DNA of 64,000 nucleotides, from assembly GCA_965248195.1 (NCBI GenBank), contig CBDFIQ010000002.1, forward strand, positions 1,056,001 through 1,120,000, read 5' to 3'. A program made the position numbers and the translations under genes. Below are positions 40,899 through 64,000 of this stretch, piece by piece. This stretch comes from Longimicrobiales bacterium (GTDB lineage Bacteria; Gemmatimonadota; Gemmatimonadetes; Longimicrobiales; Gaopeijiaceae). The notes below the pieces were generated by a model. It saw nothing but the letters and a program-made list of their open reading frames with translations, did not search any database and had not been told where the DNA came from. Every line of letters begins with the position of its first letter. The first letter of the stretch is position 1.

Positions 40899-40908
40899 CG
40901 GCCGTGAC

Positions 40909-44121: not shown

Positions 44122-45086
44122 AGGTGACCGAGGATAGGGTGGAGATCTTCACGGTCGGTGGAGGCGGGGATCGGCTCGACAGATACGTGGCGGGCCATTC
44201 GGACCTTTCCCGGGCTCGGGTGCAGGCACTGGTCGCGGAGGGGAGGGTACGGGTCGATGGCCACGTTGCCCGAAAGGCCGAGCGGCTCGAGGCCGGGCAG
44301 GAGATCGAGGTGCGGATTCCTCCGCCGGAGGCGCTGGAGGCCCAGCCCGAGGATATCGCGTTGGACGTGCTGTTCGAGGATCCTTCGCTTCTCGTCTTGA
44401 ACAAACCCTCGGGCATGGTGACTCACCCGGCGCCCGGGCATCCCACGGGAACCTTGGTTAATGCCCTGCTTGCCCATACCGGCGACCTGTCGGGTATTGG
44501 AGGCAAGCTGCGCCCCGGAATCGTGCAGCGTTTGGACCGCTATACGTCGGGGCTCATGGTGGTGGCCAAGAGCGATAAGGCACACCACGCCCTTTCCGAA
44601 GCGCTTCAACGGCGTGAAATTAAGCGTCTGTATATTGCCGCATCGTGGGGTCACCTTTCCGAATCACCTCTTGAGGTTACTGCTCCCATCGGGCGGGATC
44701 CGGTGGAGCGAAAGCGTATGGCGGTAGTAGAGAAGGGGCGTTACGCCGTGACGCGCTTTCACGTCGTGGAACGTTGGCTCGGCGCTGAGTTGTTGCGGGT
44801 AGCGCTGGGCACGGGGCGGACTCATCAGATTCGGGTTCATCTGGCGCATATTGGACACCCCGTGGTTGGGGATACCTTGTATGGTGTGGGATGGGAGCGC
44901 GGGATGGGTGGCAAAGCTCGGCAATGGGCGAAAACGCTGAGCCAAAGGGTGGAGCGGCAGTTCCTCCACTCTTGGCGGCTTTCCTTCGAGCATCCGATGA
45001 GTGGAGAGGCGATGCGATTCGAGCTACCTCTCCCAGCGGATTTACAAACGTGTGCCGACTGGGCACGAAACGACGGCGCGACGTGA
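44118..45086 (+). CDS. rluD: RluA/RluD-family pseudouridine synthase with S4 domain
   Basis: NKPSGM, RPGIVQRLDRYTSG, TGRTHQIRVH, GDTLYG. Confidence 0.88.
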   Translation: MKVTEDRVEIFTVGGGGDRLDRYVAGHSDLSRARVQALVAEGRVRVDGHVARKAERLEAGQEIEVRIPPPEALEAQPEDIALDVLFEDPSLLVLNKPSGMVTHPAPGHPTGTLVNALLAHTGDLSGIGGKLRPGIVQRLDRYTSGLMVVAKSDKAHHALSEALQRREIKRLYIAASWGHLSESPLEVTAPIGRDPVERKRMAVVEKGRYAVTRFHVVERWLGAELLRVALGTGRTHQIRVHLAHIGHPVVGDTLYGVGWERGMGGKARQWAKTLSQRVERQFLHSWRLSFEHPMSGEAMRFELPLPADLQTCADWARNDGAT

Positions 45087-45111
45087 CGGAGATTGGTTTA
45101 GAACTGTGGTA

Positions 45112-47049
45112 GTGACGGATCTGGATCCGAGATTTACCTTCGATAGCTTTATCGTGGGACCGGCGAACCGTCTCGCGTCGGCGGCGGCGCGGCGTGTGGC
45201 CGATGCGCCCGGCACGTCCTATAACCCTCTTTTCATCTATTCCTCATCGGGTCTGGGGAAGTCTCACATCCTCAATGCTATAGCGCATTATGCCGCCCGA
45301 GTACATCCCGGTTTCGGGGTCGTGTACGTGACAGTCGAGAGCTTCCTCAACGAACTCACGAGTGCCATCCAGGCAGGGGCGGAGAAAGAACTTCGAGAAC
45401 GGTACGAGGAACTCCACATCCTTCTCCTCGACGACGTCCAGTTCTTTACCGGGCAAAATGAAGCTCAGGAGATCTTGCTCAGGCTTCTGGACGGAATGAA
45501 CAAATCCGGGGGTCAGGTCGTCCTTGCCAGTGATCGCCCGCCTGCCGAGATCAACGCGCTCGACGAGCGTCTGCTCACTCGGTTCTCGGGTGGGTTGATC
45601 GTCGACATCGCCGTGCCGGAGTACGAGACCAAGGTCGCCATCCTCCGTAAGAAGGCTGAGGAGCGGGACCAGACGTTCCAAACGGGCGTGGCCGAGGCGC
45701 TTGCGAAGTACGGCTTCAGCAGTGTCCGCGCACTAGGGGGGGCGCTGAACAAGATTCTCGCCATCCAGGAGCTGGAGGAGCGCCAGGTGGAAGCGAACGA
45801 GGTCGAGGCTGTGGCGGGGCTCCAGGAAGAGGCGCCGAGCGAAGCCGGCTCGTTCGTGCAGGAGGTTTCGGCGGCGGAGAGGGACGAGGAGCCATGGAAG
45901 AGGCTGCTCCGGGAAACGGTGGAGATCTTCGAGAAGGGCGGGTACTCAGGCACGCGCCTACGCCGACTACTCGAATCCCAGGAGCCTCCACCGGACCCCC
46001 AAGCGGTGGCCGACCAATTTCGCAGGGATATTGCCCAACTCCGTGAGGTTGAGAAATCCCTCGCCACCGCCGGCAATCCCTGGCCGGAGGCCGCCGTCGG
46101 TGTGTTCAAGGATCCCGAGCGTCTGGATGAGGCAAACTCACTGCTCGCCTCGGCCCTGGAGCGAGTCAGGCCCTTCCTTCGCGTGGGGGAAGGTCCGTCG
46201 TTGGCCGACCTCACGTTGAACTACGAACCGGTCGTGATCAAGGCGGCCGCACAGCTCGTCTCCGAGGAGCGTCCGGAGTACAACCCCCTCTACATATGGA
46301 GTGAGACCCGTGCCGGTCCATTGGCGTTGCTTGCGGCGACGGCACGAACGTTCCGCGAAAAGCATCAGCTTTCGAACATCGCCATCGTTTCCGCTGCAGA
46401 ATTCGCAGAGGACTACATTCGGGCCTTGTCGGAGGGTGTGGCCGGGGCATGGCGGGAACGCTGGTGGGATGTGGACCTCCTACTCCTTTACGACGCTGAG
46501 CTGATTTCGGGGACAGAGCGCGCCAAGGACGAGTTCTTCCATCTCTTCGAGGCCTCGAAGCGCACAGGCACCAAGATGATGATCGCGGCGGACCGGGCCC
46601 CCTCCGGAATCGACGACATAGACCAGAGGTTGCGGACTCGCTTCGAAATGGGCCTCGTGATGGAGACCCCGGGCAAGAGCCTACCGCAGGGTGCCGGAGA
46701 GCTGAGTCTGGAAGAGGCGCCACCCGAGTTCATGGAAGATGAGGACCTCTGGGGCGGATTCATGCGGCCCTCGGTGGCCGGCAATGTTCTCCCCGAGGTC
46801 GAGGATTTCGAGCTCCGCGAGTCCGCTGGCCTCACGCCCGCAGTGGACGCGGCCGAACCCCAGCCTGCCTCTGCTGTAGAGCCGGCCAGGAAAGCAGTGC
46901 CCGCAGTGGCAGCGGAAATGGCGGATGCAGCGGGAGCGGGGGGAGCGGCGGAACCGGCTGGGCCGGGCTCGGTTTGGAAGCCGTCCAGGGAAAACGTGGT
47001 GTGGGACTGGCAGGCAGTCGAAGAACGCATTGTCGAATTGACGGAGTAG
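45112..47049 (+). CDS. DnaA/Hda-like protein with two tandem AAA+ modules and no DNA-binding domain IV
   Basis: FTFDSFIVGPANRLA, YNPLFIY..GLGKSH, LLLDDVQF, SDRPP; second YNPLYIW..DLLLLYD..EFFHLF..ADRAP..RLRTRF; start 45106 or 45112. Confidence 0.85.
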   Translation: MTDLDPRFTFDSFIVGPANRLASAAARRVADAPGTSYNPLFIYSSSGLGKSHILNAIAHYAARVHPGFGVVYVTVESFLNELTSAIQAGAEKELRERYEELHILLLDDVQFFTGQNEAQEILLRLLDGMNKSGGQVVLASDRPPAEINALDERLLTRFSGGLIVDIAVPEYETKVAILRKKAEERDQTFQTGVAEALAKYGFSSVRALGGALNKILAIQELEERQVEANEVEAVAGLQEEAPSEAGSFVQEVSAAERDEEPWKRLLRETVEIFEKGGYSGTRLRRLLESQEPPPDPQAVADQFRRDIAQLREVEKSLATAGNPWPEAAVGVFKDPERLDEANSLLASALERVRPFLRVGEGPSLADLTLNYEPVVIKAAAQLVSEERPEYNPLYIWSETRAGPLALLAATARTFREKHQLSNIAIVSAAEFAEDYIRALSEGVAGAWRERWWDVDLLLLYDAELISGTERAKDEFFHLFEASKRTGTKMMIAADRAPSGIDDIDQRLRTRFEMGLVMETPGKSLPQGAGELSLEEAPPEFMEDEDLWGGFMRPSVAGNVLPEVEDFELRESAGLTPAVDAAEPQPASAVEPARKAVPAVAAEMADAAGAGGAAEPAGPGSVWKPSRENVVWDWQAVEERIVELTE

Positions 47050-47061
47050 AAATAGCACTGT

Positions 47062-48681
47062 ATGGGAATCAAAGGAGCACTCACCGACGTCAGTCTGGCC
47101 GATATCTCCCAGCTGCTCGGCATGGGCGGAAAGACCGGGTGCCTTACCCTCACGCACAAAGAGAACCACGGGTACGTCTACTTCGAGGGAGGGCGCGTGA
47201 TCGGCGCCTCCGTCCGGGACCGGCCGGACCGAATCGGAGAACTTCTCGTCGCCCGCGAAGTTATCAGCCGGGATCAACTCTCGGCGGCGATGGCGCATCA
47301 GGTGGGGGGCACCGGACGGAGATTATTGGGGGCGGTGCTCGTTGAACTAGGCAGCCTGACCCAGGAGAAGCTGGAGGAATACCTCTCCGTGCAGATGGAG
47401 GAGGCGGTCTACCTGATTTTTCAGTGGAGTGAAGGGACCTTCGAGTTCGAGCCGGACGTCATGCCGGACGAAGGCCTATTTCGCATTTCGATCAGCATCG
47501 ATGCCCTCCTCATGGAAGGGGCGCGCCGAGTGGACGAGTGGAGCGTGGTCGAGAAGAAGATCACGTCCATGGATCTCATCTTCTCATTGGAACGTAACCC
47601 CCTGGAGGATGAGGGCCTCGACCTCACGGACGACCAGAAGAGCATCATCCCACTGACAGACGGCCAGCGCACGGTCACGGATCTGGTTGAGGATTCCGGA
47701 CTCACCGAGTTCGACACTGGAAAGGCGCTGTACGGCTTGATCCAAGCCGGGTTTGCCGTCCAGGTCGGAAGGCGCGTGGCAGAGGACAAGGCTGAGGGAT
47801 CGCTGGAGGAGCACTTGGGGGCCGGGCTGGCCGCGTATAAGTCGGGGTCGATGGACGACGCGACCCGTGAGCTCCGAAAGGCCCTCGAGGTTGATCCGAC
47901 GCACCCTCAGGCCCGGGCTCACCTGGCGCTGATCAGCCTGAGACAGGGCAAGGCACAGGAGGCCATCGTTCACTTCGACGGGATGGGCGAGGACACGAAG
48001 CCCAGCTACGCCCTACTCCGGAATCGTTCTTTGGCGTACGAGCGGCTGGGCAGGTACGACGAGGCGCTCTCGACCCTAGATGCGGCCGAGAGGCTCGACG
48101 CGGACGATGCGGGTCTCGCCCTTGCCCGAGGCATCGTCCAGATGAAATCGGGGGACGGCGCCGCCGCGATGGGCTCACTAAAGGTCTACCAGGGCAAGCT
48201 CGGTTCGGAGACGCCGCCGCCCATGTTCTACGCGTTTTCCATTTTGGCTGCGGGACTCACGGGGGACATGGTCGGCGCTTTGGAGATCGGCGAAGAAGGC
48301 CTCAAGCGATATCCGGAAGAGGGGGCGATTCTCGTAAATGCCGGTGCCGTCCTGGAGCATCGGGGGGACGGCGAGGCTGCGACCGCCTATTACGAGAGAG
48401 CCATCAAGGGTGACTCTCCTCCGCCGCAGGCCTTCAAGGCCCTCGGGGATCAAGCCCTCGGCCAGGGAGCCAAGGCTCAGGCCAAACAACACTTCGAGTC
48501 GGCCCTTAAGGAGGCTCCCAGCCTCGGGGAGGATGTCTTGATCAAGCTCGGCGCCATCGAAGTCGAGAACTCCAACACCGAGGAGGCCGCCGCGCTGTGG
48601 CGTCGAGCCTTGGCGTTGAACCCTGACAATTCGTCTCTCCGGACTAAGATCGACCAGCTCAGAGCCACGGCGGCGACGTGA
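47062..48681 (+). CDS. DUF4388 + GSPII-N-like + TPR repeat protein
   Basis: IKGALTDVSLADISQLL..KTGCL, RIGELLV, WSEGTFEF, LLMEGARRVDEW; multiple TPR-like repeats. Confidence 0.85.
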   Translation: MGIKGALTDVSLADISQLLGMGGKTGCLTLTHKENHGYVYFEGGRVIGASVRDRPDRIGELLVAREVISRDQLSAAMAHQVGGTGRRLLGAVLVELGSLTQEKLEEYLSVQMEEAVYLIFQWSEGTFEFEPDVMPDEGLFRISISIDALLMEGARRVDEWSVVEKKITSMDLIFSLERNPLEDEGLDLTDDQKSIIPLTDGQRTVTDLVEDSGLTEFDTGKALYGLIQAGFAVQVGRRVAEDKAEGSLEEHLGAGLAAYKSGSMDDATRELRKALEVDPTHPQARAHLALISLRQGKAQEAIVHFDGMGEDTKPSYALLRNRSLAYERLGRYDEALSTLDAAERLDADDAGLALARGIVQMKSGDGAAAMGSLKVYQGKLGSETPPPMFYAFSILAAGLTGDMVGALEIGEEGLKRYPEEGAILVNAGAVLEHRGDGEAATAYYERAIKGDSPPPQAFKALGDQALGQGAKAQAKQHFESALKEAPSLGEDVLIKLGAIEVENSNTEEAAALWRRALALNPDNSSLRTKIDQLRATAAT

Positions 48682-49790
48682 TTCCAGCCGTCCTGGCCCT
48701 GATTCTCACGATCGGGCAGGACACGGTCGGACAGGACGCGCGTGGGCAGAACCCGGCCGGGCAGGACGCGATCGGGCGGGTAGCGGCCGGGCAGGTAGCG
48801 GCCGGGCAGGTAGCGGCCGAGCAGGTAGCGGCCGAGCAGGTAGAGGGTGCTCCGGGTGCGCCCTGGCAAGATGCCGTCGGGCTGAAGCTCACGGACGGAC
48901 GGTATCTCGTCGGCGTGCGAGCCACCGTTTCCTTCGTTTCCGCTGATTCGATCAAGGCCGCGCGAGTGCTGAGCGATCTGGAGGGTGCAATCCCACTACC
49001 GGGCCTGCCCCCGGGGGTACCGAGCGGCGTGCTCCTGGTCCTGGCGCCGGACGAAGCCCAGTTCGTGCGCCTTACCGGGGGAGCCGCTCCGGACTGGGGT
49101 GCCGGCGTGGCGTTTCCGGCGCAGTCGGCGATTGTCGTTCCGGCGTTTACGTCGGAGCGGGGCACCGGCTGGAATGATGCACGTGTCCTGCGCCATGAGT
49201 GGGCGCACGTCGGCCTTCATCAGCATCTCGAGGGACTTCGAGTGCCCCGTTGGTTCTCCGAGGGATACGCGCAGTGGGCGAGCGGGGGTTGGGATTGGAG
49301 CGAGGGTTGGAAGCTTCGGATCGCGTTGGCTCGGGGGGGGAGCCCGCTCGACTCTCTTGCCCTTGCGTGGCCGCGGAATGAGGCTAGGGCTCGCACCGCG
49401 TATCTTCTCTCGGCGACCACCGTGGAATATCTGGTCGTGGAGGGTGGCCCGAGGGCACTCGAGGTGCTGCTCCGCCGTTGGAAGGAGCTGGGGAACTTCG
49501 AGCGGGCGTTTCGGGCGACGTTTGGGGCCACGACCGCCCAGTTCGAGGAGGAGTGGCGGCGCTACGTCGAAGAACGCTACGGTTGGCTATTCGTGCTCTC
49601 ACATTCGGCGGTTTTTTGGATGTTGATGAGCCTGGTGCTCGTCGCCATGGCCGGGGTCCGGAGGGGGGCACGGCGGGAGCGGATGGCTCGCCTCAGAGCG
49701 GAGGACATCCCGGATCGGCCCAGCTTCTGGCTGACCCCCGATCGTTTACAAGAAGGTGATTCTGGACCCGACCCGGACGGATCGGAGTAA
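48678..49790 (+). CDS. Peptidase MA-like (gluzincin) metallopeptidase with signal-like N-terminus and C-terminal TM
   Basis: RHEWAH (HExxH), PRWFSEGYA; hydrophobic segments at both ends. Confidence 0.78.
   Translation: MIPAVLALILTIGQDTVGQDARGQNPAGQDAIGRVAAGQVAAGQVAAEQVAAEQVEGAPGAPWQDAVGLKLTDGRYLVGVRATVSFVSADSIKAARVLSDLEGAIPLPGLPPGVPSGVLLVLAPDEAQFVRLTGGAAPDWGAGVAFPAQSAIVVPAFTSERGTGWNDARVLRHEWAHVGLHQHLEGLRVPRWFSEGYAQWASGGWDWSEGWKLRIALARGGSPLDSLALAWPRNEARARTAYLLSATTVEYLVVEGGPRALEVLLRRWKELGNFERAFRATFGATTAQFEEEWRRYVEERYGWLFVLSHSAVFWMLMSLVLVAMAGVRRGARRERMARLRAEDIPDRPSFWLTPDRLQEGDSGPDPDGSE
48713..48843 (+). repeat. 15-bp coding tandem repeat (GQxxx / G(E)QVAA units)
   Basis: CAGGTAGCGGCCG(G/A)G units repeated, preceded by degenerate GGGCAGGAC units. 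Confidence 0.8.
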
Positions 49791-49837
49791 GAGTTGACAG
49801 GGCGCTTCTAAAATCGCGCGTCTAAAAAGGACCCAAC

Positions 49838-51226
49838 GTGTCTCGCATCCTTCTGGTCGACGACGACGCAGACCTCCGATTCGTTTTTCGAGAGAAGCTC
49901 GAATATTCGGGTCATGAAGTAGACGAAGCAGACAGCGCGGAGGTCGCGTTGGCCAAGGTCAGCTCGTTCGATCCGGCTCTGGTCGTCACCGATGTACGTA
50001 TGGATGGCATGACCGGGCTGGAGCTCCTGAGCCGGATCCGGGAGTCCATGGAGCACGTCGACGTGATTGTAATGACGGGACACGACACCATGACCTCCGC
50101 CGTGGAGGCCATGAAGTCCGGGGCGTTCGACTACCTCGTCAAACCGGTGGGGCTCAAGGAACTCGTGGCCGTTGTGGATCGTTGTCTGAGCGACCAGGAG
50201 ATCAACCGAGCCGCGGCCGAGCAGCCGGAGGCCGACGGCGGAGATGCCGACCGCGACGAGTCGGAGGGCGCCGAATCCGACGCGCGAGCCCGGAAAGTGA
50301 TTGGCCGAGATCCAAGGATGATCGAGATCTATAAGATGATTGGGGTTCTTTCGCGGAATCGTGCAACCGTCTTGGTGAGAGGAGACACAGGGACAGGGAA
50401 GGAGATGGTCGCACGGGCCGTGCACGACCACTCGATCCATTCGGACGAGCCGTTTATCGCGGTCAACTGTACCGCGCTTACCGATACGCTGTTGGAATCG
50501 GAGCTTTTCGGGCATGTGCGAGGGGCGTTCACCGGAGCGGTGGGCGGGAAAAAGGGGTACTTCGAGCTCGCGGGGCGGGGCACCATCTTCCTCGACGAGA
50601 TCGGGGACACCTCCCCCGACTTTCAGTCCAAGCTTCTTCGAGTGCTTCAGGAGCGGCAATACTATCCGGTCGGGGGCGAACAGCCCAAGACCACCGAGGC
50701 GCGCGTTGTGGCCGCGACGCATCAACCCATGGAAGAGTTGGTGTCCGAGGGTGGCTTCCGGGAGGATCTCTACTTTCGTCTACAGGTCGTCGAGATCCAC
50801 GTCCCCAGCCTGCGTGAAAGAAGGGAGGACATCCCCCTGCTCGCCCAGCATCTTCTTGGGCGTATCCGGCGCGAGACGGGCGCCACAGTGCGGGGGATCT
50901 CCGAGGACGCGATGGCTCGTATTCAGGAGTACGATTGGCCCGGCAACGTGCGTGAACTCGAGAACGCGTTGACCCGTGCAGCCATCGTGGCGCGGGGACC
51001 GTTGGTAGGTCCCGACCATCTTACACTCGGAACCCATGCCGATGTGAGTCCGTCCCGCGAAGCGTCGGGTGGGGTGCCTGAGGGTGATCTGACGCTGGAC
51101 GGAGCGATCGAGTGTCAGATCCGGCGTGTTCTGGAGCAGACGGAAGGAAACAAGACGGAAGCCGCCTCGCTTCTCGCGATCTCTCGCTCCCGGCTCACCC
51201 GGTACGTGGAGCGACTCGGCCTGTGA
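49838..51226 (+). CDS. Sigma-54-dependent response regulator (NtrC/AtoC family)
   Basis: REC domain, GDTGTGKE, ESELFGH, GAFTGA, WPGNVREL, Fis-type HTH. Confidence 0.95.
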   Translation: MSRILLVDDDADLRFVFREKLEYSGHEVDEADSAEVALAKVSSFDPALVVTDVRMDGMTGLELLSRIRESMEHVDVIVMTGHDTMTSAVEAMKSGAFDYLVKPVGLKELVAVVDRCLSDQEINRAAAEQPEADGGDADRDESEGAESDARARKVIGRDPRMIEIYKMIGVLSRNRATVLVRGDTGTGKEMVARAVHDHSIHSDEPFIAVNCTALTDTLLESELFGHVRGAFTGAVGGKKGYFELAGRGTIFLDEIGDTSPDFQSKLLRVLQERQYYPVGGEQPKTTEARVVAATHQPMEELVSEGGFREDLYFRLQVVEIHVPSLRERREDIPLLAQHLLGRIRRETGATVRGISEDAMARIQEYDWPGNVRELENALTRAAIVARGPLVGPDHLTLGTHADVSPSREASGGVPEGDLTLDGAIECQIRRVLEQTEGNKTEAASLLAISRSRLTRYVERLGL

Positions 51227-51280
51227 AGGCTGAGCTCGGTCGGTTGACCCGGGTGGGTCCTTGGAAATAGGATCCGGGCT

Positions 51281-51487
51281 ATGAATAAGAAAGACGAACT
51301 CGGCGGTGCAGGGGCGGCACGCAAGGCATCCCTACAGTTCTCCAGGATAAATCTTGCCTTCGCTGCCGGAGCCCTCGTCACGATCACGCTCGGCTATTGG
51401 CTCCTCTCCATAGGCTCGATAACGTGGGCCCCGATCCTACTCGTCGTGGGTTACGTGTTCCTGGTGCCACTGGCCATCATCCTGTAG
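51281..51487 (+). CDS. Small two-TM membrane protein (DUF3098-like)
   Basis: N..LGYWLL..SITWAPILLVVGY pattern. Confidence 0.65.
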   Translation: MNKKDELGGAGAARKASLQFSRINLAFAAGALVTITLGYWLLSIGSITWAPILLVVGYVFLVPLAIIL

Positions 51488-51514
51488 GGCCTTGGGTTTG
51501 GGGTTGTTGGACGT

Positions 51515-52870
51515 TTAGACGGGCTTGGTGACGACCCGCGTTTGCGCAAACTGGCGGTGGCCGTCCCGAGATTTGTGGAATCCGAACCCACTCTGGCGTG
51601 CGCCCACCCAAGGCGTGCCCGGCGTGCCCCCCGCGGCTTTGTTGATTCCGATCATCCCTGCCGTGAGTTGACGCGCGACCCGAGCTGTCCGTTCGTCATC
51701 CTCCCCGAAGACCACCGCGCCGAGTCCGAAGGGGGTGGCATTGGCCTTCCAGATGGCCTCGTCTTCCGACTCGACCCGTGTCACGCAAGCCACGGGCCCG
51801 AAGGTCTCCTCGGTCGCGATGGACATCTCCTCGGTGACGCCCGTGAGGACAGTCGGAGTGATGAAGTTGTCGTGATGTCCCGATCCGCCCGCCAGGACCT
51901 CGGCGCCCTCCGAGACCGCCGCCTCTAGCTGGACCAAGACGTGACTTCGCTGATGAGCGTTGACCATGGGGCCGACCTTGACGCCTTCGTCCAGGCCGTC
52001 CCCTTGCTTCATCGACACCGTGGCCTTTACCAGGAGGGCCTCGAAGCGGTCGGCGATCACTTCCGGGACGAAGATCCGCTCGGTACTCACGCAGACCTGG
52101 CCAGCGTTACGAAAGCTGTTGAATGCGGCGAACTGTGCCGCCTTCTCGAGGTCGGCGCTCTCCAGCACGATCAGCGGATCCTTGCCGCCGAGCTCCAATA
52201 TGACGCGCTTGAGCTCCCCACTGGCGGCACGGAGGATGTGCTTTCCCGTCTCACGCGAGCCCGTGAATGCGATGAGGTCCACCTCGCTATCGACGAGCCG
52301 TTTGCCCTGATCGTCGGCTCCCTGCACCACGATGAGTACGTCGGAAGGCAGCTTTTCGTTGAGGACGTCGGCATACGCCTGCCCGGAAAGCGGCGTTTCT
52401 TCCGAGGGCTTGAGGACAACCGTATTCCCCGCCGCAAGCGCCGGCACCACCAACCAGGCCGGCATGGACATTGGGAAGTTCCACGGCGTGATCGCCGCGC
52501 ACACCCCCAGTGGATCGTGATAGACGGTCGAACGATTACGTCCGTCGTCAAAAGTTTCGGGAGCGAGCGCCTCCCCGATCTCCTCGAGCTCGCGCTGCAC
52601 GTGCGCCAACGACTTCGCCTCTACGATCCCCTCCGCGAGGGGTTTGCCCATCTCCTGCGTAATGAGACGCCCGAGCTCGTCGGCCCGGGTGAGAAACGAC
52701 TCGGCAGCTTCCGTCAACAAGCAGGCGCGCCCGTCGTGGCCCAGCGCCTCCCAAGCCGGTTGTGCCGCCCGCGAGCGTTCGACGATGGCGGGAATGTTAT
52801 CGGTTGGCGTGACAAGAACCTCTCCTAAGAGATCGCCGGTCGCGGGGTTATAGGACTTGAGTGGCTTCAT
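51515..52870 (-). CDS. Aldehyde dehydrogenase family protein
   Basis: ITPWNFP, KPSEETP, FTGS, LELGGK, NAGQVC, EETFGPV. Confidence 0.95.
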
Positions 52871-53009
52871 GGGGCTCAGTGGCTTGAAAGGATCTCCGAG
52901 TGTGGCATCGCGAGAGTGCTCACCCCAAGGTAGGACAAATTCCGCGGGAGTCGATCCGGTGTCGGGCGAAGATGCAGATGAGAACGAAGGGGATCCAATC
53001 CAAAGGCAC

Positions 53010-53672
53010 CTATCGCTTCCGGGCCAGCGTCAACCCATCCCCCACGGGCAGTAAGCTCTGCGTCACGCGCTCGTCTCCAGCTAGCTTCGTGTTGATGGCA
53101 CGAATGGCTCCGGTGTCCACGTCCGTAGCCGCAGAATCCACCACCTTCCCTTCCCACAGCGTGTTGTCGAGCACGATGAGGCCACCTGTGCGCATGAGCT
53201 CCAGAGCCCGTTCGTAGTAGGCGTCGTAACCCTCTTTGTCGGCATCGATGAAGGCAAAGTCGAAGGTCTCGGCGCACCCCTCCGCCAAGAGAGCGTCGAG
53301 CGTCTCCAAGGCGGGAGCCAATCGCAGGTCGATCTTGTGGGCTACCCCGGCCTCTTTCCAATACCGTCGTCCGATGGCTGTCCACTGCTCGCTGACGTCG
53401 CACGCCACCAGACGGCCGTTCTCCGGCAGAGCCAGGGCCACCGCGAGGGCGCTGTAACCCGTGAACGTGCCCACTTCCAAAGCGTTCCGAGCCCCGATGA
53501 GTTCCACCAGAAGGGCCATGAATTGCCCCTGCTCAGGGCTGATTTGCATGTTGGCCTTCTCCAAGGAAGCCGTCTCTTCTCTGAGTTGCCTCATGACGGG
53601 CGGCTCGCGGAGGGACACGTCCAGAAGATAGGCGTACAGCTCCGGGGGAAGGTGGTTGGTGCGTCGGGTCAC
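53010..53672 (-). CDS. SAM-dependent O-methyltransferase (caffeoyl-CoA OMT-like)
   Basis: [37 protein letters not shown] start at 53672 assumed. Confidence 0.92.
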
Positions 53673-53682
53673 GGTTCGGTAC

Positions 53683-53780
53683 TCATGGCATTTCCATCTC
53701 GAGGGCACGCCACATATACCAGGTAGCGGCGATCCGCCACGGGCGGTAGGGCTCGCCTAGCGGCATCAGAATACGCTCGC
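53683..53780 (-). pseudogene. 3' remnant of a DNA-3-methyladenine glycosylase (AlkA-like)
   Basis: Minus strand encodes [21 protein letters not shown], resembling the AlkA/MagII C-terminal signature; no upstream homologous sequence. Confidence 0.6.
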
Positions 53781-53804
53781 CGTCGGCGAATACAAGCGTC
53801 CTGG

Positions 53805-54300
53805 CTCTGCTTGCGCCTACCGGCCCGCTCTCGGATGTTGATCTTGGTCTGATCCCGGAGGGCACATGGACCTGCAAACCTGGGGAATCCTTCTCTTTTT
53901 CTTTGGACCCCTTTACATCATCTGGATCTCGGCGCAGTTCAAGGGGGAATCCCCTGGAAATGCTCTTGGAATCGTCATTCTCGTATTGGTGGCGAACGTC
54001 GCGGTCCCCATCGCCCTTGCGGCCCTTGTGCATTGGTTTTTGGGGTTGGCAGTTTTTCTACTAGGACTGCTCTTCATCGGGTTCATGCGAGACCGTGACG
54101 CTCGGACCCAGGGACCGCTGTCGCCCCCGAAGTAGCCCAAGCACCCGTGTTGCTCTAGACTCGAAGATCAGCACCCCATAACCGCCCTCTAAGCCACGAC
54201 GACCCTCCACCCTATCAGCGAGATACCGAATAAATACCGCATACGCCTAGAACGTAATTCTGGGCTTGTGACGGGCCTCTGCTTGCGCCTACCGGCCCGC
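53805..54300 (+). repeat. 24-bp perfect direct repeat CTCTGCTTGCGCCTACCGGCCCGC
   Basis: Copies at 53805-53828 and 54277-54300. Confidence 0.9.
53866..54135 (+). CDS. Small hypothetical membrane protein (about 3 TM)
   Basis: Highly hydrophobic 89-aa ORF with GGAGG RBS. Confidence 0.7.
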   Translation: MDLQTWGILLFFFGPLYIIWISAQFKGESPGNALGIVILVLVANVAVPIALAALVHWFLGLAVFLLGLLFIGFMRDRDARTQGPLSPPK

Positions 54301-54477
54301 CGGCGTGACAGTTGACTGCAACCTATGGAACCGGCGGACCCAAAGGCCCTTCTAGGCAGGATGGAACGCTAGAATCGTCCCTGATTGGGCGTCGGCAACT
54401 TGAGCCGCTCGAAGAGCCTCCATACTCCGCCCTATTAGATCGTTAGCCGTGAGTGAGCCCCCCGCTCCATCGAGAGC

Positions 54478-55854
54478 GGTAGTGTCCCTAGATTTGTGTA
54501 AAAGCGGATAAGCTGGACAGGAGGGAAAGAAAAACGGAAGCTCCTCTGTTGTTGTTCACTGTCACATGAACCCGGGAGTCCGGGTCTGCAGAGCAGGCTC
54601 GGAACCGGAGAGGAGCTTCCGATGCAAGAGATTGTGGAGATCGGTCGGGCCACGCAAGACGAGCTACGCGATGATTTGCGCGAGCTGTTTCAAGGCGCGA
54701 TCCGGCTGACGCTCGAGATGGTGCTGGAAGAGGAGCTGAAGGCCATGGTAGGTGCACGCCGCTTCGAGCGGGTGGGAAGCCGGAAGGACCATAGGAACGG
54801 CACATACCTGAGGCGGCTGCTGACGAGCCTGGGGCAGATCGAGGTCGCCATGCCCCGGAGCCGGGACAACGGTTCGCCGGCCGACGTGATCGGCCGCTAC
54901 CAGCGCAGGAGCCCCGAGCTCGACGAGATGATGGTCGAGGCGTATGTGAGCGGCGTGTCACAGCGCAAGATGGGCGACGTCACCGAGGCGCTGATGGGCG
55001 AGCGTGTTGGGCGCTCGACGGTGAGTCGTGTGGCAAAACGGCTCGACGAGGCCGTGGAAGGGCTGCGCCGTGCGCCGATCGAGGGGCCTCACCCCTATCT
55101 GTACCTGGACGCCACGTTCTTGGACGCCCGCTGGGCCCGCAAAGTCGAGAACGTGAGTGCGCTCGTGGCGTATGCAGTGGGCCCTGAGGGTCACCGACGG
55201 CTCCTGGCCGTCACGCTGGGCGCTGAGGAGTCGCAGCAGAGCTGGTCGGAGCTCCTCGAGCAACTCCAGGACCGCGGCCTCGGCGGTGTCGAGCTCGTGA
55301 TCGCCGATGAGCACGCAGGCCTGGCAGCTGCGGTCCGCCGCTTCCTGCCCGAGGCACGCCGTCAGAGGTGTACGGTCCATCTGCAGCGTAATGTGGGGGC
55401 GAGGGTCCCCCACCGCCTACGCAAGCGCGTGGCGCGTGAGGTCTCGGTGATCTTCCAGACATCCGGACTCGCCGAGGCGAAGAAGCTCCTGGGCGAGTTC
55501 GGCGCACGCTGGAAGAAGGAGCTGCCCGAGGCCGTGGAGGTCCTGGAGCGGGGCTTCGGGGCAGCGACGCAGTTCTACGCGTTCCCCGAGGCGCACTGGC
55601 CCCGGCTGCGTACCACCAACAGCCTCGAGCGGCTGCACGGCGAGATCAAACGCAGGATCAAGGCCGCCGGCGCCTTCCCGGACCGGGCCAGCGCCCTCAG
55701 GCTCATCACGGCCGTCGCACTCAGGACCACACACGTCTGGGGCGACCGGCGTTACCTCGACCTCTCACTCCTCCAGAAACAGGAGGTCGCCCAAGCAGCC
55801 TAGCCGAAGGCGAGGAGCTTCCTCCGCTTTTACACACAAATCGGGACTTGACCC
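54478..55854 (+). mobile_element. IS256-family insertion sequence
   Basis: Imperfect terminal IRs (GGT...GTCCC...TGTGTAAAAGCGGA); 8-bp target duplication TCGAGAGC at 54470-54477 and 55855-55862. Confidence 0.92.
54622..55803 (+). CDS. IS256 (Mutator) family transposase
   Basis: RNGTYLR, YLDAT, IADEH, QRCTVH, TTNSLER DDE motifs. Confidence 0.96.
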   Translation: MQEIVEIGRATQDELRDDLRELFQGAIRLTLEMVLEEELKAMVGARRFERVGSRKDHRNGTYLRRLLTSLGQIEVAMPRSRDNGSPADVIGRYQRRSPELDEMMVEAYVSGVSQRKMGDVTEALMGERVGRSTVSRVAKRLDEAVEGLRRAPIEGPHPYLYLDATFLDARWARKVENVSALVAYAVGPEGHRRLLAVTLGAEESQQSWSELLEQLQDRGLGGVELVIADEHAGLAAAVRRFLPEARRQRCTVHLQRNVGARVPHRLRKRVAREVSVIFQTSGLAEAKKLLGEFGARWKKELPEAVEVLERGFGAATQFYAFPEAHWPRLRTTNSLERLHGEIKRRIKAAGAFPDRASALRLITAVALRTTHVWGDRRYLDLSLLQKQEVAQAA

Positions 55855-56854
55855 TCGAGAGCGGCATAATACCCTGCCGAGAACCGCAGCTCGGACCGCC
55901 GGCGCTCCTTGAGGATGGCTTGGTCGTTGAGGGCCTCGACGAGTCGCGTCGCGAGCGTCGCCGCACCTTCCTCATCCGTTCCAGGGGCTAAGACGAGGAA
56001 GTCGTTCGTGTCCAGGATACCCGTAGAGTCCGAGTCCCGGGTTGCCTCGAAAAGAGCTGTCGCAATGCGGTCGAGAAGCCGGGGAGACCCCGGATCGCTC
56101 AGGGAAATCCGGAGGACCTTATCGGAAGAACCCTCCACAAGCCCTTCAGAGGAAACGACCGTCTGGCCCTCCCTTGGCCCCAGAGCCACACACGCGGTCC
56201 ACCGGCGGTTCCGTTGTGCGTCCGCAACCAACTCCACCGCCCTCGCGAACAACCCGTTCCAGTTATAGAGGCCGGTTGCCGGATCCTTGTGGGTGGACTC
56301 CAAAGCATGCTCGACCTGTCTACGGGCACTGAGGAATGCCTCCAGCTTACCGACAAGCTCGACCGGATCGAACGGTGAAGAAAAGATATCCCAAATACCC
56401 GCTCTAAAGCACTCGTGGCGCTCCTTCCTGTTGAGACTGTCGGTCGTGGTGATGACGAAGGGGGTAGTATCGTCCACCGTCGGCAGTTCTCTCATCGCAC
56501 GGCAAGCGTCCAAACCCATAATGTCGGTCAGTTTGCAGTCCACGATGACGAGGTCGGGCCGGAGCCTGACGGCCAATTCGATCGCTTGCCGACCGGTATA
56601 GGCCTTGACAACCGTAAATCCCGCCAGCTGGAGGACGCTCTCCAACGACCGCGCGGTCCACTCGTGGCTGTTGACGAGAAGTACGATTACGATTTTCTCC
56701 GGGCCAGCGAGATGTGTTCCCTAAGGGTTCGCGTAAGCCCTGGGGGAGGGGGCTCAGCAAGAGGGGGTTTTCAGTTATCCGCCCGTCCCCTAGCGTAATA
56801 GATCAAAAATGGGACGTGGCCTTACGCGAATACAAGGAAATTAATGCAAGAAGC

Positions 56855-56985
56855 GCTCACCCCCCTCGAGTTCCTCGAGCGACTCGCCCAACTCATTCAC
56901 CCGCCACGCATCCACCGTCACCGCTACCACGGGTGCTGGCTCCCAATGCCAAGCTCAGGGATCAGGTCATCGCGCTCGGGCGTGC
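56855..56985 (+). pseudogene. IS91-family (Y2) transposase C-terminal fragment, frameshifted
   Basis: LTPLEFLERLAQLIHPPRIHRHRYHG continues as VLAPNAKLRDQV in another frame (one G missing at about 56931-56933). Confidence 0.75.
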
Positions 56986-57040
56986 GCAGGGTAGTGTGGA
57001 GGGCTCGCCCTCAGGACCGTTCGACGCTCGGTCCGTCGCT

Positions 57041-57131
57041 TACACTCAGGAAGGTCTACCAGCAGTCCGATGCCGAGACTATGCTACAGGTCGTTCTCGA
57101 TGGTGGTGAGCTAGGGGAGCGCAAAGCATGA
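57041..57131 (+). pseudogene. 3' remnant of a tyrosine integrase related to 57407-58642
   Basis: TLRKVYQQSDAETMLQVVLDGGELGERKA* vs TLRLVYQQSDADAMLRVVLERGELREAK*; 20 bp identical (57054-57073 vs reverse complement of 57462-57481). Confidence 0.88.
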
Positions 57132-57144
57132 GGCAGGTCGTTCT

Positions 57145-57164
57145 TGCACAAAACATTGCACACC
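57145..57164 (+). promoter_or_regulatory. Putative integrase arm-type sites TGCACAAAACATTGCACACC
   Basis: Tandem TGCACA motif just after the integrase remnant; mirrored at 57360-57379. Confidence 0.55.
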
Positions 57165-57226
57165 GTTCGATCACGGTGAGGGCTCTTGTGCGAGAAAACG
57201 GCTTCAACAAGCCAAGAAGTACCCCA

Positions 57227-57301
57227 GGGCGGTTAGCTCAGTTGGTTCAGAGCGCCTGGTTTACACCCAGGAGGTCACAGGTTCGAATCCTGTACCGCCC
57301 A
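57227..57301 (+). tRNA. tRNA-Val(TAC); CCA not encoded; probable integration target
   Basis: GGGCGGT/ACCGCCC acceptor stem, CCTGG-TTTACAC-CCAGG anticodon arm, GGTTCGAATCC. Confidence 0.95.
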
Positions 57302-57359
57302 CTTGGAAAGGTAGGAAACAAGCGGCTTTTCAGGTTTTCGCCCTGGGAGGCCGTTTGTT

Positions 57360-57379
57360 GGTGTGCATGTTCGTGTGCA
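57360..57379 (-). promoter_or_regulatory. Putative integrase arm-type sites TGCACACGAACATGCACACC
   Basis: Tandem TGCACAC between the integrase stop and the tRNA 3' end. Confidence 0.55.
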
Positions 57380-57406
57380 CGTTGTGGTCGTTTGGAAGCC
57401 ATGTTC

Positions 57407-58642
57407 TTACTTCGCTTCCCTGAGTTCGCCGCGCTCGAGCACGACCCGGAGCATGGCATCAGCATCGGACTGCTGGTAGACGAGGCGCAGGGTGTTGGGA
57501 TTCGTCCAGCCGCCGGCACGCGCAACGTCGATGTCCGGTAGATGCTTCCGCTCGGTTGCCCATTTGCGCCTGTATGCGTGCCAGAGGCTTCCGTCGAGTT
57601 TCTCTAGTCCTGCGAGTTTCTCGGCCTCCCGAAGCCATTTGGCTGCGAGATGTCGGCTCACGGGCTTGGTTAGGTTGCGCGGGGCAGGGAAGAGGTACGC
57701 CTTCCCGATGCCGGGTCGCTCATGGAGCACACGGTCGATGGCTGCTCTTACGTCGGGGCCGATAGGGACGGTAGTCTCCCGGCCTGTCTTGTCCGTCTCT
57801 GCTGGCCACCGGATCGCTCCGTGGGGACCATCCGACAGTTGGAGGTCTTCGTACTGAAGCTGAAGGACCGCCGAGAGCCGGCGTCCGGTGCCGCTGACGA
57901 TGTCGAGAATCTCAGAGAGGTATGCGCGAACGATCTTCGACTTGCCCTGCCCGCGGATCTCCATGGTGACGTTGTCGGTTTTCGCCCGAGTCGCTTGATA
58001 ACGGTCCTCGGTAGCAGCGGGCCGTCTCGGGTTTTTCTCAGTCGGCACATCGTAGCCCCGCACTGCGTTCTCACGTAGTAAGTACTGGCCCCGTGGTGTT
58101 CTCCATTTCGAGGCCCAGTTGAAGAGCCAGTTCAGCCACTGCAAGTCCTGACTGATCGCCCGAGTGCGTACGGCCCGGCGGTCTTCGACTGGAACTGGCT
58201 TGGCCCGAGAGTCGATCGCGCCCGACTCCCTCAGGTCGATGAATCGTTCCCATTGGGCGAGCGCGATAGTGTGTGGGTCGGTGTCACCTCCGAGGAAGCG
58301 CTTCCATAGTTCCCCACGACGCTTATCCGCTTCCTGCTCCTTCTCTCCCTTCCGTGGACTACGATGCAGCAGGTAGAGGTCGATCACCTGAGAGAGCTTC
58401 ACAACGCCGGCGGTGATCTCGGCTGTGCCTTTCCGGAGCTTCGCTGCCTGCTCGAGGGCGTAGCTCTTCGCGGCTTCCTTGTCACGATGCTTCAGCGACC
58501 GTCTAACCCAATTGCCCAGCCCCCCACGTTTGGTTGGATCCCACGCCCGAGCACGTAGTATCCCGCCAGGCTCCCGCTCTTCAACCACGACGGTAAATGG
58601 TTTCGAGCCGGCTGAAAAACTCCACTTCTTGCGCTTCGCCAT
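57407..58642 (-). CDS. Tyrosine recombinase/integrase
   Basis: Catalytic R (TGRR), K (TDK), HxxR (HAYR), W (GGW), Y (VYQQ); transcribed toward tRNA-Val. Confidence 0.93.
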   Translation of the reverse strand: MAKRKKWSFSAGSKPFTVVVEEREPGGILRARAWDPTKRGGLGNWVRRSLKHRDKEAAKSYALEQAAKLRKGTAEITAGVVKLSQVIDLYLLHRSPRKGEKEQEADKRRGELWKRFLGGDTDPHTIALAQWERFIDLRESGAIDSRAKPVPVEDRRAVRTRAISQDLQWLNWLFNWASKWRTPRGQYLLRENAVRGYDVPTEKNPRRPAATEDRYQATRAKTDNVTMEIRGQGKSKIVRAYLSEILDIVSGTGRRLSAVLQLQYEDLQLSDGPHGAIRWPAETDKTGRETTVPIGPDVRAAIDRVLHERPGIGKAYLFPAPRNLTKPVSRHLAAKWLREAEKLAGLEKLDGSLWHAYRRKWATERKHLPDIDVARAGGWTNPNTLRLVYQQSDADAMLRVVLERGELREAK

Positions 58643-58644
58643 GC

Positions 58645-58878
58645 TCACACCTCCTCCTCTTCCAGGGCCGCTTCCATGCGATCGGCTGCGGCAGTGAATG
58701 ACGTGGATTTGGATCGGAGATACACGATGAGTTCTCGGACTGCTGCGTCGGTGACCCGACGTTCGCCACGCACATAGGCGTGCAACATGCGATGGCTTCG
58801 ACCCGTTTCCCGAGCCAATTCAGCCAGGTTCAAGCCGCCGAGAGTCTCCTTGTACCACTTCGCCAATTCCGTACTCAT
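58645..58878 (-). CDS. Small HTH DNA-binding protein
   Basis: LNLAELARETGRSHRMLHAYVRGERR XRE-like HTH; ATG 58878. Confidence 0.7.
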   Translation of the reverse strand: MSTELAKWYKETLGGLNLAELARETGRSHRMLHAYVRGERRVTDAAVRELIVYLRSKSTSFTAAADRMEAALEEEEV

Positions 58879-62021: not shown

Positions 62022-62666
62022 ATGACTGAAAGAGTGATGACCGACGTTGCGATCCAGCCGAGGGCAAAGCCGCTCGACAACAAGAGACACGAGAGATTTG
62101 CGTGTGAATACGTCGTTGACTTCAATGCCGCCCAGGCATACATCCGCGCCGGCTACTCTCCAAAGGGCGCTCGAACTTCGGCCTCTCACCTACTTGCAGA
62201 TCCCAACATTATCGCCAGGGTTCAGTACCTCGTAGACACGAGGGCAGAGAAGCTCAACTTCGAGGGCGAGCGGGTGATGATGGAAACCGCCCGGCTCGCG
62301 ATGTCCGACATCACCGATGTGCTGGAGGTCACCGACACCGATGGGGTGATCATCTTCCCCTCGGAGACATGGAGTGACCACGCGAAGAGAGCGGTGGAGT
62401 CGGTGAAGCAGACGGAGACGTTCAACAAGGACGGCGACCTCACCTCACGCCGCGTCGAGCTGAAGATGCACCCGAAGCAGGCGGCGCTCTCGCTGCTCAG
62501 TCACCAGATCGGCATCATCGGGAAGGGCGCAAAGAACAAGCCACTGCGCCCCGAGGAGTTGGGCGTGGTCATCCTACCAAGGCTCGACGATGAACCGGAC
62601 TGGGATGCCATCGAGGATGGCGACCCGCGCTACTCGCTGGCGCAGCCGCCGCAGGAAAGGGGCTAG
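62022..62666 (+). CDS. Phage terminase small subunit
   Basis: RHERFACEYVVDFNAAQAYIRAGYS..ASHLL..LKMHPKQAAL, the Terminase_2 pattern. Confidence 0.9.
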   Translation: MTERVMTDVAIQPRAKPLDNKRHERFACEYVVDFNAAQAYIRAGYSPKGARTSASHLLADPNIIARVQYLVDTRAEKLNFEGERVMMETARLAMSDITDVLEVTDTDGVIIFPSETWSDHAKRAVESVKQTETFNKDGDLTSRRVELKMHPKQAALSLLSHQIGIIGKGAKNKPLRPEELGVVILPRLDDEPDWDAIEDGDPRYSLAQPPQERG

Positions 62667-62703
62667 AGACGGTTAGTACGGTGAGGTGCTGAGCAACCCG
62701 TCT

Positions 62704-63081
62704 CTAGCCGTGCCCTTCGAGTTGCGACCGAAGCTGCTTGATCCAACCCGGCGACTTCCCGGTTCTGCTCTCTTCCACGCCGTCCATGATTCGCTGCATG
62801 GCCCGGATCCTCTCAGCAGGAGGTAGATCCTGCACGAGGACTTCTAGGGCGGCAAGCGCGGAGTGAACATCAGGCGTAGATCCGCGTCGAACGTACCAAC
62901 GCTCGAGCTTCCTACGGGTCGCTGAGTAGGGACTCGCACCTGACAAGAACTTCCGAAGCCCGGTTGGGCTCATTCCCACCTCACGGGCTACCCCGCGAAG
63001 CGATGTCGCTGAGACGCCGCCAGCCACCGCCCGTTTCAGAGTGCCAACTGACACCCTCCCCTCACCGGCAGGCAATGGCAC
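62704..63081 (-). CDS. HTH-containing hypothetical protein
   Basis: SLRGVAREVGMSPTGLRKFL; start uncertain. Confidence 0.65.
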   Translation of the reverse strand: MPLPAGEGRVSVGTLKRAVAGGVSATSLRGVAREVGMSPTGLRKFLSGASPYSATRRKLERWYVRRGSTPDVHSALAALEVLVQDLPPAERIRAMQRIMDGVEESRTGKSPGWIKQLRSQLEGHG

Positions 63082-63099
63082 ACCTGCGGAAGTCCTTGT

Positions 63100-63393
63100 T
63101 CACTGCATTGTAATAGCCAACCCATACATCACCGCTCTTTCCATAACCTCGATCAGTGAGGACAGAAACTGTATTCTCTTCTCCTCGTTGCCCTTCCAAT
63201 CAGAAAACTCTCCCCTGGAATGCGCGAACTTCTTCATATGTAAGTGAGACACGCCAAATGTACCCAAGACCCTGTTCCATCCCCGCTCGAACTCGTACCA
63301 GCCCTCTTGGGTTGAAACGATCGCGGCAACAACAAGCGGATCTGGCTCGACCGTCTCTTGGGAAGAAGCGTCATAAAACAAATTGAAGACCAT
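63100..63393 (-). pseudogene. Truncated DUF3800-like protein
   Basis: FYDASS..LVVAAIV..W..FERGW..VL..HLHMK.F; early stop, with YNAVNKDFR following in another frame. Confidence 0.55.
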
Positions 63394-63426
63394 GAAGTAC
63401 CTGTCCTCTATAGGAATGCCGGCGCA

Positions 63427-63584
63427 CACTCCGTGCAGTTGGAAGTACCTCTTCGAGATATCGATGCCGATGATGCTGACCACCTTGCCCATGGATCCCC
63501 CCCTCTCGTGTCCCGAACGCACCCCGTGTGCGTTCTCCTCACCCAGCGCACGTTGGTGCCCGGTGTAGGGGGCGTCCACTCCAT
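63427..63584 (-). mobile_element. IS110/IS1111-family left end and first 22 codons of the transposase
   Basis: ATGGAGTGGACGCCCC end motif, then MGKVVSIIGIDISKRYFQLHGV (DEDD transposase N-terminus). Confidence 0.75.
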
Positions 63585-64000
63585 CGTGGAATCAGCAACC
63601 ATTTGCTAGAATGCCCTTTAGTTGGGCGTGGTCATCCTACCAAGGCTCGACGATGAACCGGACTGGGATGCCATCGAGGATGGCGACCCGCGCTACTCGC
63701 TGGCGCAGCCGCCGCAGGAAAGGGGCTAGAGACGGTTAGTACGGTGAGGTGCTGAGCACAAGCGGATCTGGCTCGACCGTCTCTTGGGAAGAAGCGTCAT
63801 AAAACAAATTGAAGACCATGAAGTACCTGTCCTCTATAGGAATGCCGGCGCACACTCCGTGCAGTTGGAAGTACCTCTTCGAGATATCGATGCCGATGAT
63901 GCTGACCACCTTGCCCATGGATCCCCCCCTCTCGTGTCCCGAACGCACCCCGTGTGCGTTCTCCTCACCCAGCGCACGTTGGTGCCCGGTGTAGGGGGCG

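What the first reader, a model, noticed from the sequence alone, without database searches (positions are those of the whole stretch)
57041..57500. tRNA-Val bracketed in mirror image by two related integrase ends and arm-site pairs
Seen: left side, integrase 3' remnant (+), then TGCACAAAACATTGCACACC, 62 bp, then GGGCGGT (tRNA 5' end). Right side on the minus strand, intact integrase 3' end, then TGCACACGAACATGCACACC, 59 bp, then GGGCGGT (tRNA 3' acceptor strand). The two integrase tails are diverged at synonymous and non-synonymous sites, so this is not an assembly duplicate. Established: tRNA-targeting elements usually restore the 3' part of the gene and sit downstream. Inference: this integrase family can occupy both sides of one tRNA in opposite orientations, perhaps by exploiting acceptor-stem or anticodon symmetry; the upstream element would replace the tRNA 5' leader, and the arrangement might allow inversion of the tRNA.
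Basis: partly seen in the sequence, partly recalled or inferred. Interest (0 to 1): 0.75.

Follow-up and report, generated by a model that had tools for sequence, protein, structure and literature searches.

The report
tRNA-Val hit from both sides
Two related mobile DNA elements appear to have inserted into the middle of the same valine tRNA gene, one from each side, each supplying half of the gene; both ways of inserting are known, but here close relatives of one integrase use either orientation with the same docking-site layout.

Summary
The mirror is real. Best reading: two islands of one Gemmatimonadota tyrosine-integrase clade entered the anticodon loop of the only tRNA-Val(UAC) gene in opposite orientations. 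The right one is a complete 24-kb 3'-fragment island. The left is a relic whose far end was not found. Its relatives are clear 5'-fragment islands, with the displaced 5' half 6-47 kb upstream, and relatives without an insertion show the empty site. Shared sequence stops at the anticodon loop, not the acceptor stem. Arm repeats lie about 101 bp and 115 bp from the loop in both orientations. Seven tRNAs are bracketed this way, and orientation switched at least twice. tRNA inversion is unsupported. 5'-fragment islands are known (159 of 3919 in Islander), and this scan found several on other DNA. Not found in my searches: one clade using both orientations with a fixed attP layout.

The parts
51281..51487 (+). 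Small membrane-protein host gene; the native upstream neighbour of tRNA-Val(TAC)
   Evidence: In L149 its orthologue ends 13 bp before the tRNA (tblastx to 51311-51487); L162 matches 51395-51496. L154 and L157 end in a similar reading frame, judged by eye.
51488..57226 (.). 5.7-kb interval inserted upstream of the tRNA: decayed remains of one or more 5'-side islands (aldehyde dehydrogenase, O-methyltransferase, IS256, receiver-GGDEF gene, IS91-type remnant)
   Evidence: Absent at empty sites; Pfam. No displaced tRNA 5' half is left in it. GC 0.623, like the host.
54622..55803 (+). IS256-family (Mutator) transposase, one of about 100 near-identical copies in the genome
   Evidence: PF00872; blastn of a second copy lists over 100 matches
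56844..56945 (+). IS91-type (Y2) transposase remnant just before the point where the left integrase is cut off
   Evidence: PF04986, E 1.6e-5, residues 3-33
57042..57131 (+). Last 28-29 codons of a tyrosine integrase (left element), including the catalytic Tyr motif
   Evidence: tblastn 71% to residues 386-413 of the right integrase; profile E 3.9e-5
57145..57164 (+). Left arm-type direct-repeat pair (integrase-proximal arm of the 5'-type element); binding inferred
   Evidence: Sequence; same pair at the same distance from the loop in relatives
57165..57226 (+). Element-derived spacer that now forms the tRNA's 5' leader
   Evidence: Closest to the spacers of 5'-type Val(TAC) junctions L039 and L148 (65 and 63 of 85 nt). 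No sigma-70 consensus promoter found.
57227..57302 (+). tRNA-Val(TAC), the only one with this anticodon in the assembly; 5' half inferred to come from the left element, 3' half from the right
   Evidence: ARAGORN
57260..57266 (+). Anticodon loop TTTACAC, the inferred 7-bp crossover, flanked by the stem inverted repeat CCTGG/CCAGG
   Evidence: The right element's displaced fragment begins exactly at 57260 (tRNA position 34). 5' fragments of relatives end at or just after the loop.
57303..57359 (+). Element-derived trailer with a terminator-like hairpin
   Evidence: Hairpin 57333-57352; first 60 nt of this side fold at -27.4 kcal/mol against -10.4 for the left spacer
57360..57379 (-). Right arm-type direct-repeat pair (integrase-proximal arm of the 3'-type element)
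   Evidence: Sequence; a matching pair lies on the same strand at the far end, G000:C2:1137168-1137186
57407..58648 (-). Intact 413-aa lambda-like tyrosine integrase of a 24.0-kb island that ends at a 42-bp tRNA 3' fragment outside the window (G000:C2:1137297-1137338)
   Evidence: PF00589; invariant R257, K287, H357, R360, W381, Y391; predicted fold closest to lambda integrase 1z1b, with an N-terminal beta-sheet plus helix
58645..62666 (.). Backbone genes of the right island: small HTH (excisionase-like, inferred), AAA_25 helicase-like, NikA-like, terminase small subunit; looks like a phage satellite
   Evidence: Pfam; the satellite reading is inference

Best explanation
Two separate islands carrying related lambda-type tyrosine integrases recombined at the same 7-bp site, the anticodon loop of tRNA-Val(TAC), in opposite orientations. 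Both attP types have one layout, read in the integrase's direction: integrase stop, arm pair, about 101 bp to the loop centre, then about 115 bp to a second arm pair. They differ in which tRNA half they carry in front of the loop. A 5'-type attP carries the 5' half, lands upstream and pushes the host promoter and 5' half away. A 3'-type attP carries the 3' half, reversed, with a terminator hairpin, and lands downstream. The anticodon stem reads CCTGG on both strands, so the core half-sites next to the crossover look alike either way. The loop itself matches its reverse at only 2 of 7 positions, so each attP is fixed to one orientation. The left island arrived first or independently and has decayed to its tail. 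The right island is complete. The mirror is a by-product of two equal arm-to-core distances. Shown: positions, fragments, empty sites, distances, tree placement. Inferred: crossover position, arm binding, that the left relic was itself a 5'-fragment island, order of events.
For: Right island: 42-bp 3' fragment (tRNA 34-75, 100%) 24.0 kb downstream, with an arm pair 115 bp inside. 5'-type relatives with the displaced 5' half upstream in the right orientation: G042 47.0 kb and G041 17.7 kb (positions 1-42; 2 of 5 genomes searched had it on the same contig, 1 on other contigs, 2 had none), L051 9.4 kb and L099 6.2 kb, G007 7.1 kb. Empty sites place tRNA-Val directly behind the gene at 51281-51487. 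Arm end to loop centre has median 101 in both classes (34 of 43 5' and 5 of 16 3' junctions at >=50% identity gave a measurable pair). Distal arm at 115 in this island and in L112 and L118, 113 in L204, 118 in L051; not detected in 3 of 8. The left spacer is closest to 5'-type Val junctions. The same genome repeats the bracket at tRNA-Ala(TGC) and has 5'-facing tails at Asn and Ile. The integrase keeps all six catalytic positions and a lambda-like fold.
Against: The left element's far end was not found: no 5' tRNA half in the genome or in 40000-57200 (best local score 18, below shuffles), so its type rests on homology. No promoter consensus was found in the left spacer, so how the tRNA is now transcribed is open. 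Six of 34 measured 5' junctions have much shorter spacing (57 or 36 bp) and three have 92. No 5' fragment was found for 2 of 5 Val genomes or for L074's genome. No recombination or binding was tested.
Confidence: 0.88

Rival explanations
1. The locus is an invertible switch: the integrase flips the tRNA between the mirrored arms, using the acceptor-stem repeat as core.
For: Inverted arm pairs at near-equal distance and a 7-bp inverted repeat (acceptor stem) flank the gene. One low-depth opposite-strand joint each in runs X1 and X8.
Against: Shared blocks end at the loop in both classes, not at the acceptor stem. Inversion needs two inverted cores (PMC8371274, passage) and the locus has one. 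The tRNA has the same orientation to the host gene as at empty sites. The two joints (57214-57465, 57045-57543; depth 2-3, laid at 85% likeness) are not at the acceptor-stem ends and fit related elements. Contigs drop rare variants, so this is not proof of absence.
Confidence: 0.03
2. The left tail is debris of an ordinary 3'-type element, moved in front of the tRNA by IS-driven rearrangement.
For: The genome has over 100 IS256 copies; an IS91-type remnant abuts the cut end; no far end was found.
Against: The same tail, arm pair and spacing precede 12 tRNA types in 51 junctions, 11 of them with near-full-length integrases. The left spacer lacks the strong hairpin of 3' types and resembles 5'-type Val spacers.
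Confidence: 0.04
3. The left element brought a whole tRNA gene of its own, and the host copy was lost later.
For: Only the integrase-proximal copy remains. Two relatives hold a second, 93-95% similar tRNA of the same type (G045, G007).
Against: Where both ends survive, the far copy is a half that stops at the loop and runs into element DNA. The tRNA still lies at the host's native locus.
Confidence: 0.05

Closest known systems
Islander tDNA islands with a displaced 5' fragment (Hudson, Lau, Williams; PMC4383910, read parts 1-2 of 3)
   Same: Tyrosine integrase, anticodon-centred site, target gene restored, 5' fragment displaced upstream; 159 of 3919 islands.
   Different: There a 4% minority. 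Here 5'-facing tails were found at 8 of 28 family tRNA-Val(TAC) loci against 2 of 27 3'-facing. The parts read do not describe both types on one tRNA or orientation switching within a clade.
[quoted passage not shown]
   Same: Bacterial element that recombines with the 5' part of a tRNA gene.
   Different: A single element by its title; I could not read it, so whether it discusses double occupancy or switching is unknown to me.
pTN3-like archaeal integrases (PMC8371274, passages)
   Same: attB is the 5' half of a tRNA; crossover near the anticodon loop; the rebuilt tRNA is expressed from the element.
   Different: There att lies inside the integrase gene, which is split on integration. Here att lies about 100 bp behind the stop codon and arm-type repeats are present.
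Phage lambda integrase and attP (PDB 1z1b)
   Same: Three-domain fold, R-K-H-R-W-Y residues, 7-bp overlap between inverted core sites with arm repeats on both sides (lambda's layout recalled, not from a call).
   Different: 18% identity; target is a tRNA loop; one simple arm pair per side; accessory factors unknown.

Membership tests
tRNA-targeting island with 3' fragment (right element) | Tyrosine integrase gene inside the island | tested here: met
   PF00589, six catalytic residues invariant, lambda-like fold
tRNA-targeting island with 3' fragment (right element) | Intact tRNA plus a 3' end fragment downstream, same orientation, 2-200 kb apart | tested here: met
   42 bp, 100%, 24.0 kb downstream
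tRNA-targeting island with 3' fragment (right element) | Excision and integration at the predicted att sites | not testable with these tools
   Only contigs were available and the far end lay outside the laid stretch
tRNA-targeting island with 5' fragment (left element) | Displaced 5' tRNA fragment upstream | tested here: not met
   None in this genome. So the left relic is not filed as a complete member; it works like one. Met in relatives G041, G042, G007, L051, L099.
tRNA-targeting island with 5' fragment (left element) | Intact integrase gene | tested here: not met
   Only the last 28-29 codons remain; near-full-length in 11 of 51 5'-facing junctions
tRNA-targeting island with 5' fragment (left element) | Foreign DNA between the native upstream gene and an intact tRNA | tested here: met
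   5.7 kb absent at empty sites L149 and L162 by tblastx, L154 and L157 by eye
tRNA-targeting island with 5' fragment (left element) | Element supplies a promoter for the rebuilt tRNA | tested here: inconclusive
   No sigma-70 consensus in 56600-57500; no RNA reads to test
Lambda-type integrase with arm sites | N-terminal arm-binding domain that binds the repeats | tested here: inconclusive
   Model shows strands 10-51 and helix 57-72; best match is full-length lambda Int; no Pfam arm-domain hit; binding untested
DNA inversion switch | Two inverted crossover sites around the invertible segment | tested here: not met
   One core at the locus; no second loop-plus-stem copy except the direct-oriented far end
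DNA inversion switch | Both orientations present in the population | tested here: inconclusive
   No fitting joint in 4 runs' contigs; contigs cannot show absence

The most novel reading that the evidence does not exclude
These integrases are blind to target orientation: any anticodon stem gives them the same core half-sites, and orientation is set only by which tRNA half and which strand of the loop the attP carries. Orientation would then flip repeatedly by swapping that cassette inside a fixed arm scaffold, perhaps at doubly occupied tRNAs like this one, where both cassettes lie side by side. The left tails would persist because, once the host promoter is lost, the old attP has become the tRNA's permanent leader and promoter (31 of 51 5'-facing junctions are tail-only against 12 of 43 3'-facing, in a search-biased sample).
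Probability: 0.3. Interest if true: 0.62.

Novelty: new variant of a known kind. Interest (0 to 1): 0.4.

Why it matters
It turns an odd mirror into a natural experiment. Integrases about 60% identical, on the same tRNA, with the same arm spacing, integrate in opposite directions. That makes it directly testable what sets orientation and how tRNA-targeting integrases change targets. It also suggests that in this family many tRNA genes have element-made 5' halves and leaders, and that island finders which need the displaced fragment miss these relics. The two insertion modes themselves are known, and no new biochemistry is shown.

Tried and rejected
Acceptor-stem crossover: rejected, shared blocks end at the loop. 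The bracketed tRNA as a ready-made attP: rejected, because in a true attP the two arm pairs are in direct orientation and here they are inverted. One attP serving both orientations through a symmetric loop: unlikely, TTTACAC matches its reverse at 2 of 7 positions. Search for the left island's 5' fragment: nothing. The claim that this integrase reverted from a 5'-type ancestor: not shown; holding all 5' types together without L074 was not rejected (AU p 0.063 on C-terminal parts; 0.30 on long sequences). The tree is the quick one; the careful search did not finish. Rows left out: six long or gappy rows; L074, L012, L015 and rows without a tRNA. My first arm pattern missed most pairs and was replaced. 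Promoter scan: none. Public runs: no RNA holder listed; low-share runs say nothing on habitat. phmmer against PDB: no match; the profile found only Xer proteins. Literature: seven searches listed no paper on double occupancy or within-clade switching. The recalled labels 'class IB' and 'Oi108' gave nothing useful. Zhao and Williams 2002 is not held, and Williams 2002 was seen only as cited. Passages of the tycheposon preprint and PMC12884075 did not address orientation. No supplements were read; Islander's island lists may hold doubly occupied tRNAs.

Full report
Observation. The tails differ at 11 synonymous and 8 non-synonymous codons of 28. The repeat pattern occurs only 8 times in the 4.86-Mb genome. 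Measured from the anticodon loop (57260-57266), the arm pairs end 99 and 97 bp away, so the loop is the axis of the mirror.

Host. The window lies in a two-contig genome. Nearly all homologous loci that carry names are Gemmatimonadota, many Longimicrobiales, so the host probably is too. This is its only tRNA-Val(TAC).

Right element. A 42-bp exact copy of tRNA positions 34-75 lies 24.0 kb downstream. It begins at the first base of the loop. An arm pair lies 115 bp inside it, on the same strand as the integrase-proximal pair. The integrase has Pfam PF00589, invariant R257, K287, H357, R360, W381 and Y391 in 30 aligned homologues, and a confident model (pLDDT 86.6) whose best match is full-length lambda integrase. 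The island also holds an HTH gene, an AAA_25 protein, a small terminase, insertion sequences, a second unrelated integrase and metabolic genes. Another tail of the same family follows the far fragment, so this side is a tandem array. This is an ordinary 3'-fragment island.

Left element. Among 30 fetched family loci (of 40 matches), tRNA-Val(TAC) follows a small membrane gene directly in L149 and L162 (tblastx) and, by eye, in L154 and L157. That gene ends at 51487 here, so 5.7 kb have been inserted upstream of an intact tRNA. The displaced 5' half was not found, and the integrase is cut to its last codons beside an IS91-type remnant. The left element therefore fails two membership tests and is a relic. 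Its type is inferred from relatives.

Relatives. Of 115 integrase 3' ends in the first 105 loci, 43 faced a tRNA 5' end, 36 a 3' end and 36 had no tRNA within 300 bp (some places were fetched twice). After more loci and de-duplication there were 94 junctions, 51 5'-facing on 12 tRNA types and 43 3'-facing on 16. Complete 5'-type islands exist: the displaced half (positions 1-42) lies 47.0 kb upstream in G042 and 17.7 kb in G041; G045 has such halves on other contigs; G043 and G044 have none. L051 (9.4 kb), L099 (6.2 kb) and G007 (7.1 kb) are further cases. In each the half stops at or just after the loop and runs into element DNA. In a survey picked by tRNA, not by integrase, 8 of 28 scorable Val(TAC) loci had a 5'-facing tail, this one included, and 2 of 27 a 3'-facing one; these were the best-scoring tRNAs, with 1.5 kb of flank. 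Seven tRNAs are bracketed on both sides: this one, tRNA-Ala(TGC) of the same genome, and L039, L057, L098, L134, L182.

One layout, two orientations. Among junctions at least 50% identical to this integrase, the arm pair ended a median 101 bp from the loop centre in both classes (34 of 43 and 5 of 16 measurable). Twenty-five of the 34 lie at 98-104; five Ile junctions have 57, three Pro have 92 and one has 36. The distal pair began at 115 here and at 115, 115, 113 and 118 in four 5'-type islands, and was not detected in three. The 3'-type spacers fold more strongly (median -21.7 against -12.7 kcal/mol), as a terminator would.

Trees. This 3'-type integrase falls in a well-supported clade (99) with 16 5'-type proteins. 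A 5'-type pair on tRNA-Thr(CGT) falls among 3'-type Pro(GGG) integrases; one of the two genomes holds the displaced 5' half. Holding all 5' types together is rejected (AU p 7e-51), so orientation switched at least twice. The C-terminal tree needs 5 changes, 3 forced by strong branches. Whether this integrase reverted from a 5'-type ancestor or branches at the base is not settled (p 0.063 and 0.30). These are quick trees.

Mechanism. Shown: the anatomy above. Inferred from it and from tyrosine-recombinase chemistry: exchange across the 7-nt loop between the two stem halves, which read the same on either strand. The loop matches its reverse at only 2 of 7 positions, so each attP is fixed to one orientation. 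The tRNA is thus probably element-made in both halves. How it is transcribed is open, as no promoter consensus was found.

Inversion. Not supported. It needs two inverted cores; the locus has one. The tRNA keeps the host orientation. In contigs of four runs, two low-depth opposite-strand joints were listed, neither at the acceptor-stem ends; contigs cannot show absence.

Known work. Islander counts 159 of 3919 islands with a 5' fragment (PMC4383910, parts 1-2 read). PMC6563490' recombination considerably less frequent and cites Zhao and Williams 2002 (passage), which I could not read. PMC8371274 describes pTN3-like integrases that use the 5' half and says this is seldom met in bacteria (passages). 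Seven searches listed nothing on both modes at one tRNA or on switching within a clade; the library lacks most subscription papers, including the two key Williams papers. Earlier notes of this scan report 5'-side islands in at least 8 other genomes; none matched this integrase by sequence.

Verdict. A real feature, explained by two known insertion modes meeting at one tRNA. What may be new is the clade: 5' orientation common, repeated switches, fixed attP layout. Interest 0.4.

Noticed in passing
G000:C2:2518343-2519224: tRNA-Ala(TGC) is bracketed in the same way by two integrase remnants (70% and 65% to this integrase); a partial 3' fragment lies about 5.8 kb downstream.
   Followed up: partly
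G000:C2:300067-300527 and 419164-419415: 5'-facing integrase tails with arm pairs before tRNA-Asn(GTT) and tRNA-Ile(GAT); the Ile spacer is 44 bp shorter than usual, about four helical turns, and this short form recurs in four other junctions.
   Followed up: partly
G000:C2:419342-464773: At least five 3' halves of tRNA-Ile(GAT) follow the gene within 46 kb, a long tandem island array.
   Followed up: no
window 54622-55803: IS256-family element with over 100 near-identical copies in the genome, a large recent expansion.
   Followed up: partly
window 62557-64000: Exact direct repeats of 139 bp and about 290 bp inside the right island (62557-62695 = 63620-63758; 63332 onward = 63758 onward), a very recent duplication or an assembly fault.
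   Followed up: no
G000:C2:1725114-1725523: Three short anticodon-arm pieces (two of tRNA-Ile, one Pro-like) within 400 bp, probably stacked att scars.
   Followed up: no
window 51515-52870; L016, L151, L152: The aldehyde dehydrogenase gene also lies just upstream of tRNA-Val in three relatives, two with an integrase tail between, so part of the left interval is an old insertion.
   Followed up: partly
G000:C2:412812, 2029796, 1968387: Lone arm-like TGCACA pairs without an integrase tail, near other island ends.
   Followed up: no
G000:C1:1071378-1073597: A dense cluster of 17 tRNA genes in 2.2 kb.
   Followed up: no
L007, L010, L026, L027 and others: A more distant branch of the integrase (33-36%), present in many copies in G011, G014 and G016; the four loci checked have no tRNA beside it, so it may behave like an insertion sequence.
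   Followed up: no
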